31,760 bases of DNA from Candidatus Micrarchaeota archaeon (lineage in GTDB: Archaea; Micrarchaeota; Micrarchaeia; Norongarragalinales; SBBD01). The notes below the pieces were generated by a model. The model saw nothing but the letters and a program-made list of their open reading frames with translations, did no database searches and had not been told where the DNA came from. Below are positions 3,106-31,760 of this stretch, in pieces. Each line of letters starts with the position of its first letter. The stretch's first letter is position 1. The position numbers were made by a program, and so were the translations under genes. The stretch spans positions 1 through 31,760 of the forward strand of contig JBDRLB010000007.1 of NCBI GenBank assembly GCA_043813365.1, written 5' to 3'.

Positions 3106-3687
3106 TTGTTCAATTATCGTGAACTTGGCCGCATGTCTGCCGCATCCCGAAAGATGCTCGAGGAAGAAATAGGGCCACATTTTTCAAGCATACCCCCTAG
3201 CATGCACGCGCCGGTCGTGGATGCTTTCCGCTCGTTATTGATACCGCCGGAAACACGCAAAATGCCTAGAATGTGGAAAAAAAGGACTTTGGAGCAAGGT
3301 GACCCGGAATTTGAGCATCCACGGGATTTTGACCACCTTATGAGAATCGCAACCAAGCGGGGAGACGAAATACTGCAGGCATGGGCACACATTGCCGATT
3401 TAAAAAAAACTCCCGGCTTGGAGGCAATGATGGGGGAAATTGGCGCGCATTTACGCAGCGACAATCCCGACCCTATAAAGCTTACCGAGCTACAGGAAAA
3501 AATATTTCAGATGCGCGCCCTTAGGAGTCCCTCAGGATCTGAATTGACTGGTTTGGCTATTAAACAAAATGTGACCGAACAAGCGGATAGGGAGTTTTTG
3601 GCGAGCACTGCGGTGCAAAGCCTTGATGACCTGTATGCTTTGCTTTTCCTAAAGAAGATACAGGCTTCGAAAAAAAGGCATGATTAA
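3106..3687 (+). CDS. Hypothetical soluble protein
   Basis: 193-aa ORF filling the dedA-valS gap, stop 2 nt before the valS ATG; no recognisable motif; start codon uncertain. Confidence 0.6.
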   Translation: MFNYRELGRMSAASRKMLEEEIGPHFSSIPPSMHAPVVDAFRSLLIPPETRKMPRMWKKRTLEQGDPEFEHPRDFDHLMRIATKRGDEILQAWAHIADLKKTPGLEAMMGEIGAHLRSDNPDPIKLTELQEKIFQMRALRSPSGSELTGLAIKQNVTEQADREFLASTAVQSLDDLYALLFLKKIQASKKRHD

Positions 3688-3689
3688 CC

Positions 3690-6104
3690 ATGGAAAAACC
3701 CAACTTTCCGGAAATGGAGAAGAAGTGGAGGCACTACTGGGAGGAAAACAAGGTTTACAAGTTCCATGATGATGGGAAGGCGCAAATTTATGCAATTGAC
3801 ACGCCCCCTCCGTTCCCAACCGGGGAGTTCCATACCGGAAGCACCCTTAATTGGGGGTACATTGATTTTGCTGCAAGGTACCATCGCATGAAGGGGGAGG
3901 CGGTGCTCTTCCCGCAGGGCTGGGATTGCCATGGCTTCCCAACCGAAACAAAGGTGGAGGCGAAATTCGGCAAACTGCCAAGGGAGCAGTTCCGGGAGAA
4001 GTGTTTGGAATGGACGCACAACATGGTCGGAACTATCAAGGAGCAGATGCAGCAGATGGGCTTCTCAATTGATTGGGAGCACGAGTATTACACTATTGAC
4101 AAGGAATACCATCGCAAGGTGCAGCTATCCCTCCTTGAAATGTACGAAAAAGGGTATGTTTACAGGGGGAAGCATCCCGTGCTCTTCTGCACGAATTGCG
4201 GAAGTGCAATTGCTAAGGCCGAAACGGACGATTCGCAGCGGGAGGGGCTATTGAGCTATTTGAAATTCAAATTCGAGCCCGGCAAGGAGCTTGAAATAGC
4301 AACAAGCAGGCCAGAGCTCCTCCATGCGTGCGTAGGTTTGGCGTTCAACCCGGCTGATGCGCGCTACAAGGATTTTGAGGGAAAAATTGCGTTCACCCCC
4401 ATTTTCAACAAACCTGTCCGCATTTACGCTGACAACGCAGTTGACCCCGCATTCGGCTCGGGAATGGTGATGATCTGCACTTTCGGGGATAGCCAGGACA
4501 TAACTTGGATGTACAAATTCAGGCTTCCGATAATTGCCGCATTTGATGAGAAAGGGCTGGTCACCAATGCCGGTTCCCCCTATGACGGCCTCCACGTAAA
4601 CAAGATGAAGCCGAAAATATTGGAAGATCTTAAGGCGCATGGGCTCATTGTAAAACAGGAGAAGCTGCAGCAGGTTGTGAAGGTGCACGACCGCTGCAAG
4701 AAGCCAATAGAGCTGCTCGCGTCCTCGCAATGGTTCATCAAACTGAAGGAGCACAAAAAAATGATAGTTGAAAATGCGGAAAAGATGGTATGGCACCCGC
4801 CGCACGCACTGCAGCTTCTCAAGGATTGGGCGGAAGGGCTCGAATGGGACTGGGTGATTTCGCGCCAGCGCGTATTTGGCATTCCCATACCGTTCTATTA
4901 CTGCGAAAGCTGCGGGGAGATTTTCCTTCCGGATAAAAAGGATCTCCCGATTGACCCGAATGCAAAACCTTTTTCAAAATCCCACTGCCCCAAATGCGGC
5001 GCCGCAATTATAGGGGAGAAAAGTATCTGCGATGGATGGGTAGATAGCAGCATCACCCCGCTAATAATTTCAAAGTGGGCATCCGATGAAAAGCAATTCG
5101 GCCGCCTCTACCCTACCTCATTACGCCCCCAGGGGACGGACATCATCCGAACATGGGCGTTCTACACGATTTTCCGCTGCTCCGTCCTTACGGGGAAGCC
5201 GCCTTTCAAGGAGATGCTCATAAACGGGATGGTGCTCGGCTCAGATGGCAAGAAGATGAGCAAGAGTGCAGGCAACTACATCGAAGCGAAGGAAGTGATC
5301 TCCAAAGCGTCAGTGGATGCATTAAGGCAGTGGATAGCGCTCTCCGGCACTACGGGGAAGGACAACATTTTTTACTGGAAGGACGTGAATTACGCGCAAA
5401 GCTTCCTCACGAAATTATGGAATGTAAGCAATTTCGTGGAAATGAGCGCAAAGGGCTATTCCGCGAAAGGTTATGAGCATCACAAGCCGCATCTGCGCGC
5501 AACGGACAAGTGGATTTTATGCAGGCTGCACCGCACCATAAAGCTGGCAACCGCAGCGATGGAAAATTACGATTATTATGAGGCAATCATCCTGATGCAG
5601 TCCTTCTTCTGGAAGGAATTCGCGGACTACTATCTGGAGGAGGTGAAGTACCGCATCTACCAGCCGGAAATTTTCGGGGAGGAAAGCAGGGAGGCATGCC
5701 AGCACGTGCTTTTGGAGGTTTTGAACAAAACGCTGAAATTGCTTTCCCCATTCATCTGCTACGCCACCGAGGAAATTTACCATCACATGTTTGCGGAGGA
5801 GGCGAAAAAACAGAAAAGCATCCATCTTGCAGGATGGCCGGTTGCAGATGAGGGAATGATGCAAAATGACACAGAAATTGCGGCAAATTCCCTCCACCAG
5901 ATAATTGCGGAAATCAGGAAATTCAAGGCATCCAACCAGCTCTCCCTCAATACGGAACTCTCATCCGTTAAGCTTACCCTGAACGGCCGCATGGAGCATT
6001 ATTTCCCGCTTATTGAGGAGGAGATAACGGCGGTTGGGAAGGCGAAAAAAATAGAGCTGAATTTCATAAAGGAGGAAAAAACAATAGTGGAATGCTCAGT
6101 TTAG
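3690..6104 (+). CDS. valS: Valine--tRNA ligase, archaeal type
   Basis: IDTPPP, HIGH-equivalent HTGS, GWDCHG, WDWVISRQR, PQGTDIIRTW, KMSKS. Confidence 0.96.
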   Translation: MEKPNFPEMEKKWRHYWEENKVYKFHDDGKAQIYAIDTPPPFPTGEFHTGSTLNWGYIDFAARYHRMKGEAVLFPQGWDCHGFPTETKVEAKFGKLPREQFREKCLEWTHNMVGTIKEQMQQMGFSIDWEHEYYTIDKEYHRKVQLSLLEMYEKGYVYRGKHPVLFCTNCGSAIAKAETDDSQREGLLSYLKFKFEPGKELEIATSRPELLHACVGLAFNPADARYKDFEGKIAFTPIFNKPVRIYADNAVDPAFGSGMVMICTFGDSQDITWMYKFRLPIIAAFDEKGLVTNAGSPYDGLHVNKMKPKILEDLKAHGLIVKQEKLQQVVKVHDRCKKPIELLASSQWFIKLKEHKKMIVENAEKMVWHPPHALQLLKDWAEGLEWDWVISRQRVFGIPIPFYYCESCGEIFLPDKKDLPIDPNAKPFSKSHCPKCGAAIIGEKSICDGWVDSSITPLIISKWASDEKQFGRLYPTSLRPQGTDIIRTWAFYTIFRCSVLTGKPPFKEMLINGMVLGSDGKKMSKSAGNYIEAKEVISKASVDALRQWIALSGTTGKDNIFYWKDVNYAQSFLTKLWNVSNFVEMSAKGYSAKGYEHHKPHLRATDKWILCRLHRTIKLATAAMENYDYYEAIILMQSFFWKEFADYYLEEVKYRIYQPEIFGEESREACQHVLLEVLNKTLKLLSPFICYATEEIYHHMFAEEAKKQKSIHLAGWPVADEGMMQNDTEIAANSLHQIIAEIRKFKASNQLSLNTELSSVKLTLNGRMEHYFPLIEEEITAVGKAKKIELNFIKEEKTIVECSV

Positions 6105-11777: not shown

Positions 11778-12095
11778 CTACTGTTCATCCTCGTTTTTTT
11801 CCAGCGCCCAGCTGATGAAGCATGCCGCAAGGTACCAATAAAGCAGGGACAGTACCAGCCCAGCGAACGACATGGCGTTCTGGCATTCACTCTCGTTCAG
11901 CCCGCACAATTGCACGAGCCCAAGAAGCGGCCATGCCAGTATTGTCATTATTGGCAAATACAGCCATTCGGGAATGTCTATCAGCAGCCCCAGGAATACT
12001 ATGAACAGCAGGAAGAATGCGAGTGAAATTTTCTCAAGGGTGGGCCTAAGGAAATCCGCCGCCTTTGCTATTGAATTTTCTGCCATTCCCATCAT
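11778..12095 (-). CDS. Small membrane protein, LRPTxxK...WYxxxCxI family
   Basis: Hydrophobic 105-aa ORF overlapping the oapA stop and abutting the oapB start; similar to 18220..18471. Confidence 0.75.
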   Translation of the reverse strand: MMGMAENSIAKAADFLRPTLEKISLAFFLLFIVFLGLLIDIPEWLYLPIMTILAWPLLGLVQLCGLNESECQNAMSFAGLVLSLLYWYLAACFISWALEKNEDEQ

Positions 12096-28141: not shown

Positions 28142-28205
28142 CAAATTGTTTTCTTTCCGGCGGAGCCACCGCCGCTTTCTTTTCTGAAAAGAAAGGGGCA
28201 AGGCA
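28142..28205 (+). repeat. Hairpin repeat copy between pyrI and the HAD gene
   Basis: CAAATTGTTTTCTTT, CGGCGG/CCGCCG stem, CTTTCTTTT-CTG-AAAAGAAAG stem, GGGGCAAGGCA end. Confidence 0.65.
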
Positions 28206-29957: not shown

Positions 29958-30119
29958 ATGGTCGTAAAAGAGGAGGCGTGCTGCCCGAAATGCTTCACAT
30001 TCAAATCATTTATAGTGCCCTTGATTTTCGACAATTCTGCAGCGACTTTCAGCTGCCCGCACGACAGCTTGCACATCTTCGTAGAGAACGAGGAAGGATT
30101 CCTACAGTCTAAGGACTAA
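29958..30119 (+). CDS. 53-aa putative zinc-ribbon microprotein (absent from the ORF track)
   Basis: MVVKEEACCPKCFTFKSFIVPLIFDNSAATFSCPHDSLHIFVENEEGFLQSKD; GGTGA RBS at 29949-29953; AT-rich box near 29909. Confidence 0.75.
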   Translation: MVVKEEACCPKCFTFKSFIVPLIFDNSAATFSCPHDSLHIFVENEEGFLQSKD

Positions 30120-30282: not shown

Positions 30283-30489
30283 ATGGAAACAGTCGAAGTG
30301 AAAGTAAGGCCAGTTGGAAACGCTCTCGGCCTGATACTGCCTGGGAAGCTCGTCAGGGAGGAAAAAATCAGGAGCGGCGAATCGGTGATGCTTACTGTGT
30401 TCAAGAGAAGGAAAGTGTCAATCGATTCCCTGCTGGGTTTGGCAAAAGGCGCGAAACCGTTCCAACGGGAGCACGGAGGCAGGAATTGA
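30283..30489 (+). CDS. AbrB/MazE-type antitoxin
   Basis: VKVRPVGNALGLILP..V..EKI..GE. Confidence 0.88.
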   Translation: METVEVKVRPVGNALGLILPGKLVREEKIRSGESVMLTVFKRRKVSIDSLLGLAKGAKPFQREHGGRN

Positions 30490-30497
30490 GGGATCAG

Positions 30498-30869
30498 ATG
30501 CTATTCGACACCTATGCCTGGGTTGAATTGCTTCTGGCAACCGAAAAAGGGAGCAGGGTTGCCGAATTGATGAAAGCGGAAAATCCCTCGATTTCGATCG
30601 CATCCATTCCCGAACTTGTTTCGTGGACATTGAGGAATGGCAAGGACCACGAGATGATACTGCACAAAGTCAAATCAGTTGCAGTGGTACTTCCGCTTAG
30701 CAATCAAATTGCCGAGTTAGCTGGGGAGATGCATTATCGGACCAAGCAAAGGATCCATGACTGGGGGATGGTGGATTCGATGATCTATTCCACTGCTCTT
30801 ACCTACGATTTGAAATTCGTGACCGGTGACCCCCATTTTGAAGGAATGCGGAACGTAATTTTCCTCTGA
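30498..30869 (+). CDS. vapC: PIN-domain toxin (VapC family)
   Basis: FDTYAWVE, E, GMVDSMI, VTGDPHF; alternative in-frame TTG at 30486. Confidence 0.9.
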   Translation: MLFDTYAWVELLLATEKGSRVAELMKAENPSISIASIPELVSWTLRNGKDHEMILHKVKSVAVVLPLSNQIAELAGEMHYRTKQRIHDWGMVDSMIYSTALTYDLKFVTGDPHFEGMRNVIFL

Positions 30870-30886
30870 GAACGCTCTTCCTGGCG

Positions 30887-30916
30887 TTAGCCTTTAATTA
30901 TTCCAATCGGAACCAC
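30887..30916 (-). pseudogene. Diverged duplicate of the rtcB 3' end (VVPIGIIKG-stop)
   Basis: 24 of 29 nt identical to 31018-31046; 4 of the 5 differences are at third codon positions. Confidence 0.8.
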
Positions 30917-31012
30917 TGCCTTGCCCCCTTTTTGGAAAAAAGGTTGCGTTGACAAAAAGTCAACTTATTGCGAGGCTAACGCCTCACAATGGCGATGGCC
31001 CCGCCGCCAAAA
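30917..31012 (-). repeat. Multi-hairpin cassette related to the tRNA intron and the pyrI-downstream repeat
   Basis: Minus strand: ATTGTGAGGC-GTTA-GCCTCGCAAT, GTTGAC/GTCAAC, CCTTTTT/AAAAAGG, then GGGGCAAGGCA. Confidence 0.65.
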
Positions 31013-31017
31013 AGCAT

Positions 31018-31760
31018 TTACCCTTTGATAACTCCAATCGGCACCATCTTCGCGACAATTTTCGAGATCCCGGCAAGTTCAACCGCTTTCACCACTTCAT
31101 CAACGTTCTTATAGGCGCCTCCGAATTCCTCCGCAAGCAGATCATAAGAGCCCGCCTGTATCGCCTGCCCCTTCTGCTCCATCTGCTTTACAATTTCCCT
31201 ACCGGAGAATTTCCTTGTCGCTTCATGCCTGCTCATGACCCTTCCTGCACCATGGCAGCTGCTGCCGAAAGTGACCGCAGCCCCGGGCAATCCGCACAGC
31301 AAGTAAGAGGCGGTATTCATCGAACCCGGAATTATCACAGGCTGCCCTACGTTCCTGTATGCCTGCGGCACCTCCTTCCTCCCCTTCCAGAATGCGCGCG
31401 TTGCGCCCTTCCTATGGACGCATACCTTTTTCGTTTTCCCCTGCACTTCATGCTCCTCGAATTTCGCGATATTGTGGCATACATCATAAACCAATGAAAG
31501 GTCATAATCCTCCCATTTCCCCCCGAACACCTGCTGGAAGGTTTCCCTGCACCAATGGGTCATCAACTGGCGGTTGTTGAATGCGAAATTAATTGCTGTG
31601 CGCATCGCCTGCAAATAATCCTGCGCTTCGGGGGCAGAAAGCGGCGCGTATGACAATTCCCTGTCAGGCAATTGCCAGTTGTTCCTCTGTATCGCGCCCA
31701 TCATCGTCCGGATGAAATCATCGCAAATTTGATGCCCGTATCCCCTGCTTCCGGAATGCA
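31018..31760 (-). CDS. rtcB: tRNA-splicing ligase RtcB, 5' part outside the window
   Basis: Frame is open to the window edge with HSGSRG; also HN, HRKGAT, PGSM, HGAGR, AYK. Confidence 0.96.
   Translation of the reverse strand, partial: HSGSRGYGHQICDDFIRTMMGAIQRNNWQLPDRELSYAPLSAPEAQDYLQAMRTAINFAFNNRQLMTHWCRETFQQVFGGKWEDYDLSLVYDVCHNIAKFEEHEVQGKTKKVCVHRKGATRAFWKGRKEVPQAYRNVGQPVIIPGSMNTASYLLCGLPGAAVTFGSSCHGAGRVMSRHEATRKFSGREIVKQMEQKGQAIQAGSYDLLAEEFGGAYKNVDEVVKAVELAGISKIVAKMVPIGVIKG

What the first reader, a model, noticed from the sequence alone, without database searches (positions are those of the whole stretch)
30887..31046. Second, synonymously diverged copy of the rtcB C-terminus 131 bp past the stop
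rtcB ends ATG GTG CCG ATT GGA GTT ATC AAA GGG TAA (MVPIGVIKG). Downstream is GTG GTT CCG ATT GGA ATA ATT AAA GGC TAA (VVPIGIIKG). Identity is 24 of 29 nt, with 4 of 5 changes at third positions, so both copies look shaped by coding selection. Similarity begins where the repeat end GGCAAGGCA stops. Inference: a scar of an element that integrates in the rtcB 3' end and supplies a replacement tail, or of allele replacement. This would make rtcB an integration site.
Basis: partly seen in the sequence, partly recalled or inferred. Interest (0 to 1): 0.72.

Follow-up and report, generated by a model that had tools for sequence, protein, structure and literature searches.

The report
Displaced rtcB tail behind hairpin repeat
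The last ten codons of the RNA-ligase gene rtcB of a tiny archaeon are present twice, on either side of a small hairpin repeat, likely because incoming DNA from a relative replaced the gene's end and pushed the old end aside, and the same gene end is also duplicated in several related archaea, which marks it as a recurrent landing place for foreign DNA.

Summary
The duplicate is real: 24 of 29 nt, 131 nt apart, both junctions bridged by contigs from other public runs. The 101-nt spacer is one copy of a dispersed, gene-less hairpin repeat. At least eight other gene tails in this genome and about eight in a congener show the same layout: tail, repeat, then a second tail starting at the repeat's end. 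Pooled, the copies differ like working orthologues (79 synonymous against 10 non-synonymous codons); rtcB alone is not significant (p=0.19). rtcB is a hotspot: a second tail occurs in 7 of 29 genomes of the order against 0 of 79 other rtcB loci, around repeats, toxin-antitoxin pairs or almost nothing, with breakpoints 26 to 209 nt before the stop. That spread, and no integrase in the insert, argue against an att site. Best reading: one-sided homologous replacement of the gene end by DNA from a diverged relative, with the free joint set by the repeat's end; enzyme and direction unproven. Earlier scan notes already describe this repeat and such duplicated ends on other DNA; the rtcB hotspot and the pooled tests are added here.

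The parts
31018..31758 (-). 3' part of rtcB (RNA ligase), cut by the contig end
   Evidence: Pfam RtcB, E 4.8e-96; 90-92% identical in five congeners
31018..31047 (-). Working rtcB tail, MVPIGVIKG plus stop (copy 1)
30917..31013 (-). Dispersed gene-less hairpin repeat, family A: T-rich left end, GC stem, terminal hairpin, precise purine-rich right end
   Evidence: profile hits; 28 copies with both ends among 31 pattern matches in this genome; 15-34 end-pattern matches in each of five congeners; fold z -4.9
30948..30990 (-). Two extra hairpins nested inside this copy of the repeat
   Evidence: predicted fold; absent from the short family members
30887..30916 (-). Orphan second rtcB tail, VVPIGIIKG plus stop (copy 2), starting at the repeat's right end
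30498..30869 (+). VapC-type PIN toxin gene, cargo in the variable slot behind rtcB
   Evidence: Pfam PIN, E 3.7e-10
30283..30489 (+). Likely AbrB/MazE-type antitoxin gene
   Evidence: ORF; no Pfam hit; label recalled from its N-terminal pattern and its position before vapC
29958..30119 (+). Conserved 53-aa ORF that closes the variable slot on the far side
   Evidence: 65-83% identical and syntenic in all five congeners; no Pfam hit

Best explanation
The second tail is likely the displaced old end of rtcB, left behind when DNA from a diverged relative, carrying its own rtcB end plus the hairpin repeat, likely recombined into the gene on one side only. Shown: two tails around a dispersed repeat; the second starts at the repeat's right end; the layout recurs at other genes and in relatives; pooled copies differ like working orthologues. 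Inferred: the left joint is a homologous crossover inside rtcB, which keeps the gene whole; the right joint is a non-homologous join between the repeat's structured end (where copying or trimming of a single strand would stall) and a point some 30 nt before the old stop. Inferred: once made, the orphan tail would give a second stretch of homology, so the unit could pass into other strains whatever lies downstream, renewing the orphan from a working allele each time. The same one-sided route, without the repeat, would bring toxin-antitoxin pairs and other small cargo in behind rtcB in other families. Host recombination is assumed; no dedicated enzyme was found.
For: Layout repeated at rtcB in G004 with another second tail and the repeat starting 4 nt after the stop in both; G000 and G004 are not sisters and three of the genomes grouping between or beside them (G001, G003, G005) and G002 lack it. 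Second rtcB tail in 7 of 29 loci of the order against 0 of 79 other GTDB loci (without G000 6 of 28, p=2e-4, and p=3e-6 against 13 of 1074 tails genome-wide; kin are not independent). Breakpoints vary from about 26 to 209 nt. 9 true tail duplicates among 1074 ORFs of G000, each with a hairpin repeat in the spacer; about 8 among 982 ORFs of G002. Of 53 repeat copies with a flanking duplicate among 188 examined, 44 have the second copy within 8 nt of the repeat's right end (my count; overlapping loci not removed). Twenty coding duplicates found without regard to frame: 79 of 103 differences at third positions (p=2.5e-8 against 50%), 79 synonymous against 10 non-synonymous codons. The synonymous to non-synonymous ratio between copies (58:15) matches that between orthologues (97:34), p=0.49. 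The slot behind rtcB holds unrelated cargo in all six congeners.
Against: At this site alone the bias is not significant (p=0.19) and both orphans carry two non-synonymous transitions, as neutral decay would give. Direction is not shown: codon usage does not tell the copies apart (p=0.40), and outgroups are closer to the working copy at 12 of 16 loci and to the orphan at 3, which does not favour a foreign working copy. At trmJ, dtd and fen1 both copies share residues seen in no sampled congener, and trmJ has 14 synonymous and 0 non-synonymous differences in 18 codons, so the donor must be an unsampled close lineage or another force is at work. Several pairs differ at both ends and are identical in the middle (dtd, G016), which fits a circle better. 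At fen1 the orphan lies on the other side of the repeat. No empty allele of this species was seen. The model does not explain how a repeat first reaches a new gene.
Confidence: 0.55

Rival explanations
1. The unit (tail plus repeat, or tail plus cargo) pops out as a small circle between the two tails and re-enters by a single crossover, or is the stripped remnant of a virus or plasmid that carried a replacement rtcB end, as prophage e14 does at icd.
For: Pairs diverged at both ends and identical in the middle, for example G016 with 4 differences in the first 12 nt, 1 in the next 120 or so and 13 in the last 77; repeats also sit beside duplicated tRNA 3' ends; integrase-family hits in 13 of 20 relatives.
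Against: Breakpoints vary from 26 to 209 nt; the insert is 101 nt with no gene; G000 has one partial integrase hit, on another contig; neither repeat family matched a viral contig (0); two repeat families and many unrelated target genes are involved.
Confidence: 0.2
2. The repeat inserted with an exact 30-nt target duplication; since then the working copy changed silently and the orphan decayed at random. No foreign allele is needed at this site.
For: p=0.19 at this site; exact or near-exact duplicates exist (dhs 99 nt with 1 difference, one G002 tail and one G004 start identical); precedent for insertion with long target duplication (PMC2853133, section 10).
Against: Pooled data reject it (79 of 89 changed codons synonymous against about 34% expected); the G004 rtcB pair has 8 third-position differences in 12 codons; similarity mostly stops at the gene boundary.
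Confidence: 0.15
3. Both tails are translated, the first copy and the repeat being cut out of part of the mRNA as an archaeal bulge-helix-bulge intron and rejoined by RtcB, which would keep both under coding selection.
For: The same repeats lie inside tRNA genes at intron-like positions; residues private to the lineage are kept in both copies at trmJ.
Against: Seamless bulge-helix-bulge pairings were found at 6 of 18 cases, none at G000 rtcB, against about 14 hits expected by chance for identical copies; both rtcB orphans carry changes at conserved residues. The test was strict and its tRNA control did not give a clean motif, so relaxed motifs are not excluded.
Confidence: 0.05
4. The arrangement is an assembly chimera of two strains.
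For: The genome is a 78-contig metagenome assembly and no single contig of another run spans the whole unit.
Against: Two overlapping contigs from two other studies match both junctions with 0 differences; the layout recurs in G004 with other sequence and at many genes.
Confidence: 0.02

Closest known systems
WHO homing elements at yeast FBA1 (Coughlan et al. 2020, PMC7282813; passages found by term search)
   Same: The gene's 3' end is replaced by a diverged allele, the old end is pushed downstream as a fragment, and the fragment is proposed to act as the second region of homology.
   Different: WHO carries an endonuclease gene and many fragments begin at about one position; here the insert has no gene, breakpoints vary, and many genes are hit.
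C-terminal displacement by homology-facilitated illegitimate recombination (Rhs, CDI, V. cholerae T6SS arrays; PMC5361080, passages)
   Same: A homologous anchor on one side, an illegitimate joint on the other, and an orphaned 3' end behind the new one.
   Different: There the swapped ends are different toxins under diversifying selection; here the protein end is unchanged, and the free joint is set by a short structured repeat.
Prophage e14 at E. coli icd with the icdC fragment (PMC13626634, passages)
   Same: A working gene end and a fragment of it, differing mostly silently, flank an insert.
   Different: e14 is a 15-kb prophage that excises; here 101 nt, no integrase, no fixed site.
Insertion with long target duplication (Furuta et al. 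2010, PMC2853133; abstract and section 10)
   Same: Insert between long duplicates without mobility genes.
   Different: Those duplicates are 44 of 46 identical or better and the cargo is restriction-modification genes; here copies are silently diverged and end at gene boundaries.
BoxC / PIT intrastrand triplex repeats of bacteria (Holder et al. 2015, PMC4666352; passages)
   Same: Short dispersed repeats with a hairpin plus a purine- or pyrimidine-rich tract, tied to unstable loci; reported to block DNA polymerase in vitro.
   Different: The word stem 'duplicat' does not occur in that paper's main text; no sequence relation was tested, and triplex formation here is untested.

Membership tests
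Site-specific integrative element (e14 / attL-attR type) | Integrase gene in or beside the insert | tested here: not met
   Insert is 101 nt; the only PF00589 hit in G000 is a partial one at the end of another contig; genome 88.6% complete
Site-specific integrative element (e14 / attL-attR type) | Fixed crossover point in the target gene | tested here: not met
   Second rtcB copies begin about 26, 30, 36, 36, 55, 63 and 209 nt before the stop
Site-specific integrative element (e14 / attL-attR type) | Target gene kept whole by a duplicated 3' end | tested here: met
WHO-type homing element | Endonuclease gene between the gene and its fragment | tested here: not met
   No ORF in the spacer; cargo in relatives is a ParE-type pair or ORFs without Pfam hit
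WHO-type homing element | Diverged replacement 3' end with the old end left downstream | tested here: inconclusive
   Two diverged ends are shown; which is old was not shown
WHO-type homing element | Allele-specific cleavage of empty alleles | not testable with these tools
   needs an enzyme and empty alleles
Homology-facilitated illegitimate recombination / C-terminal displacement | Homology on one side, non-homologous joint on the other, variable breakpoints | tested here: met
   inferred from final structures, not from filled and empty alleles of one species
Homology-facilitated illegitimate recombination / C-terminal displacement | Uptake of donor DNA and RecA/RadA dependence | not testable with these tools
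   uncultured organism; competence genes not searched
MITE / insertion sequence | Terminal inverted repeats and a short, fixed-length, identical target duplication | tested here: not met
   Repeat ends are unlike each other; duplicates run from about 15 to 99 nt and are mostly diverged
MITE / insertion sequence | Cognate transposase bounded by the same ends | tested here: inconclusive
   Y1 transposase found in 2 of 6 genomes of the genus; no repeat bounds it in G000, and in G003 the nearest repeats lie over 1 kb away at a tRNA
Retroelement (target-primed reverse transcription) | Reverse transcriptase in the host | tested here: not met
   PF00078 not found in the 10 genomes of the family searched; 3 of 60 in the order; genomes incomplete
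BoxC / PIT triplex repeats | Hairpin plus mirror tract forming a triplex | not tested
   pattern seen by eye; no mirror-symmetry count or biophysics here
Bulge-helix-bulge mRNA intron | Motif at the junctions whose excision restores the frame | tested here: inconclusive
   no enrichment, none at G000 rtcB; control unclean

The most novel reading that the evidence does not exclude
These archaea carry gene-less homing cassettes: a structured single-strand end that a host or trans-acting enzyme recognises drives replacement of essential gene ends and tRNA ends by silently different alleles across species, and the rtcB end is an order-wide docking point where the same route stacks toxin-antitoxin RNase modules next to the RNA-repair ligase.
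Probability: 0.25. Interest if true: 0.78.

Novelty: new variant of a known kind. Interest (0 to 1): 0.5.

Why it matters
It shows a route by which tiny archaea take in foreign DNA at the ends of essential genes without an integrase and without breaking the gene, and names rtcB as a place where this happens again and again in one order. The many paired copies give a testable record of exchange between diverged lineages, and the same repeats sit in tRNA genes, so the mechanism bears on how archaeal tRNA introns arrive. I found no paper on rtcB as an insertion hotspot or on these repeats in eight searches of the held library; subscription papers and supplements were not searched. The scan itself has noted the repeat and similar duplicated ends many times, so the kind of event is not rare.

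Tried and rejected
Viral source of the repeats: 0 matches for each of two patterns. Metagenome scan for more rtcB loci of the genus gave no new layout. No RNA holder listed; this says nothing on expression. Runs X2, X3, X4, X6, X10, X12 do not cover the junctions. Rfam: one weak hit inside the antitoxin ORF, far below its gathering score. ARAGORN at a relaxed score gave mostly noise and its output was cut. Screen for duplicated gene starts was swamped by internal repeats; proS was the only clear case. Nucleotide-level near-repeat scan was dominated by surface-protein repeats. Codon-usage test for donor versus host: no signal. Test for differences lying nearer the stop: 46 against 35, p=0.27, and it held one mis-registered row (G004 rtcB, wrong period), so that test and the 57/24 totals are not used; the row is correct. 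Splice-motif test: no enrichment. Integron attC reading of the GTTAGCC/GGCTAAC words (motif recalled): rejected because the order of the two words is wrong on both strands. Adenine-specific mutation as in diversity-generating retroelements (recalled): rejected, differences are of all kinds. Rows dropped before counts: 4 of 24 (false frames at tRNA loci: L093, L048, L105, L046) and four codons before the start in L043; 1 of 30 order loci, 1 of 80 GTDB loci and 2 of 80 viral loci (too little downstream DNA or no C-terminus); one paralogous neighbour gene (C9) among the 10 top hits.

Full report
Observation. The rtcB gene (Pfam RtcB) runs off the contig end and stops at 31018 on the minus strand. 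A 29-nt direct repeat, 83% identical, joins 31018-31046 and 30887-30915. The two read MVPIGVIKG* and VVPIGIIKG*. No shuffle of 1000 reached the match. Contigs of two other studies cover the right junction (X1, 30729-30972) and the left junction (X5, 30951-31101) with no differences; each is a single piece of depth about 2. The host is likely a Micrarchaeota archaeon: the three best named RtcB relatives in GTDB are Micrarchaeota at 58-61%, and earlier scan notes say the same.

The spacer. The 101 nt between the stop and the second tail fold into four hairpins (z -4.9) and belong to a dispersed repeat (family A) with a T-rich left end and a precise purine-rich right end: 28 copies with both ends among 31 pattern matches in this genome, and 15 to 34 end matches in each of five congeners against 1 to 3 for the reversed pattern. 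Copies lie in or beside tRNA genes and at gene ends. This copy holds two extra hairpins. A second repeat family (B) turned up in other spacers: 15 copies in G000 and 14 in the 1.17 Mb of G002 that I fetched. No Rfam family fits and neither repeat matched a viral contig.

Not unique to rtcB. A screen of 1074 ORF tails of G000 against the next kilobase gave 10 hits at score 30 or more (0.33 expected); one is a paralogous neighbour, nine are short tail duplicates. All nine have a hairpin repeat in the spacer: family A at rtcB and trmJ, family B at five by profile and at two by eye only. Targets include deoxyhypusine synthase, D-aminoacyl-tRNA deacylase, TatD and an RNA polymerase subunit; fen1, proS (start) and a ribosomal-protein tail (label recalled) were found from the repeat side. 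G002 gave 12 hits of 982 at score 30 or more (1.0 expected), and eight listed hits with a family-B-like spacer, one scoring 29. Starting from the repeats and ignoring frame, 53 of 188 copies had a flanking duplicate, and in 44 of the 53 the second copy starts within 8 nt of the repeat's right end, while the gap on the left is variable (my count; overlapping loci and two-ended inserts are counted more than once).

Coding selection. At rtcB alone 4 of 5 differences are at third positions, p=0.19 against the 50% expected if an exact duplicate decayed. Pooled over 20 coding duplicates (24 rows less four false frames at tRNA loci and four codons before a start), 79 of 103 differences are at third positions (p=2.5e-8) and 79 of 89 changed codons are synonymous. 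In 16 tail cases the ratio between copies (58 synonymous, 15 not) equals that between orthologues in the closest congener (97, 34), p=0.49. So the copies differ as two working alleles do, at about 60% of the distance between species. Against a simple cross-species donor: trmJ, dtd and fen1 copies share residues absent from all sampled congeners, and trmJ shows 14 silent and no amino-acid differences in 18 codons. Which copy came in is open: codon usage is uninformative; outgroups favour the working copy at 12 of 16 loci and the orphan at 3, with the RNA polymerase subunit and TatD the clearest cases of an ancestral-looking orphan.

rtcB as a hotspot. RtcB was found in 55 of 60 relatives, and the best 30 loci were fetched. 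G004 has the same stop-repeat-tail layout with another orphan (AKMVSIGAIKG*), the repeat starting 4 nt after the stop as here; G000 and G004 are not sisters in a six-gene unrooted tree, and the other four congeners lack the layout. With one scoring rule, 7 of 29 order loci have a second tail (score 25 or more; five at 30 or more) against 0 of 79 rtcB loci from other lineages and 1 of 78 viral ones; without G000, 6 of 28, p=2e-4 against the outside set and 3e-6 against 13 of 1074 tails in G000 (genomes are kin, so p-values overstate). G016 has a 209-nt second copy behind a ParE-type toxin pair, G011 a 63-nt copy behind a 76-aa ORF, G042 and G008 copies directly after the stop, G038 a weak one after 729 nt. 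These five lack the two repeats. In all six congeners rtcB faces the same 53-aa ORF and pyrB, with 421 to 1244 nt of unrelated cargo between. Here the cargo is a vapC pair; among 29 other loci, toxin families passed the cut-off in five (PIN twice, ParE, PemK twice), with a nucleotidyltransferase in a sixth and a weak hit in a seventh (68 of 124 candidate ORFs were scanned), against 0 to 8 PIN matches per genome in five genomes.

Mechanism. Variable breakpoints and a gene-less insert argue against an att site. No reverse transcriptase was found in the ten genomes of the family (3 of 60 in the order); a Y1 transposase occurs in two of six congeners but is not bounded by the repeats; G000 has one partial integrase hit elsewhere. 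The best fit (0.55) is one-sided homologous replacement: donor DNA pairs inside rtcB, supplies its own tail and what follows, and is joined at its free end to a point just upstream in the old gene. Where the donor carries a repeat, the joint falls at the repeat's structured end; related bacterial repeats are reported to block polymerase in vitro (PMC4666352, passages), which makes a stall plausible but untested here. The orphan would then serve as a second anchor, as proposed for FBA1 fragments in WHO elements (PMC7282813, passages). Rivals: a pop-out circle or stripped integrative element (0.2), favoured by pairs that are identical in the middle; exact duplication with decay at this one site (0.15); splicing that uses both tails (0.05), for which a strict motif test found no enrichment; chimera (0.02).

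Comparison and novelty. It works like C-terminal displacement by homology-facilitated illegitimate recombination (PMC5361080, passages) and like WHO homing, and resembles icd/icdC (PMC13626634, passages) and insertion with long target duplication (PMC2853133, abstract and section 10). It fails the defining tests for integrase-driven elements, WHO elements and MITEs. A tRNA-gene disruption model by a mobile element exists for another archaeon (PMC3293823, abstract only). Eight searches of the held library listed no paper on these repeats or on rtcB as a hotspot (listings and abstract starts only; two returned nothing). Earlier scan notes already report this repeat, its duplicated proS start, and like structures in other DPANN, CPR and proteobacterial genomes; these are unchecked AI notes and were used as leads only. 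Verdict: real, a new variant of a known kind, interest 0.5.

Noticed in passing
G000 C53, C57, C63, C71, C72, C76, C43, C19 (L201, L202, L204-L208, L211): A second gene-less repeat family (purine tract, then a stem, bulge and G/C hairpin) sits between duplicated tails of many housekeeping genes; at C53 the tail is duplicated almost exactly and each copy is followed by a different variant of the repeat.
   Followed up: yes
L052, L059, L104, L105: At tRNA 3' ends the two repeat families occur back to back as one insert, each pointing outward, between two copies of the tRNA end.
   Followed up: partly
G000 C47 about 11900-12080 (L203): trmJ tail copies differ at 15 of 19 codons (stop included), all silently, although congeners differ there in 5-8 of 18 residues: more silent change than a clock explains.
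   Followed up: partly
G000 C75, L043, L069: proS start is duplicated around the repeat in three species at apparently the same junction; the G003 orphan is closer to the G004 working start than to its own (by eye).
   Followed up: partly
window 28148-28205: Another family A copy lies 2 nt behind the pyrI stop in the opposite orientation, without a detectable duplicate; G004 has a family B copy with a silently diverged duplicate at the pyrI tail (L136).
   Followed up: partly
L006, L013, L014, L015, L019, L027, L029; window 30283-30869: Toxin-antitoxin-type genes often lie just behind rtcB across the order, placing RNases next to an RNA ligase; no formal background test.
   Followed up: partly
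L369, about 3630-3900: A virus-contig rtcB also has a second tail 206 nt after its stop, behind a short ORF.
   Followed up: no
window 29958-30119: A conserved 53-aa cysteine-containing ORF without Pfam hit faces rtcB in all six congeners.
   Followed up: partly
G002 C5 about 104940-104990: Nucleoside-diphosphate-kinase-like gene (label recalled) has its last 24 nt duplicated after only 2 nt, with no repeat.
   Followed up: no
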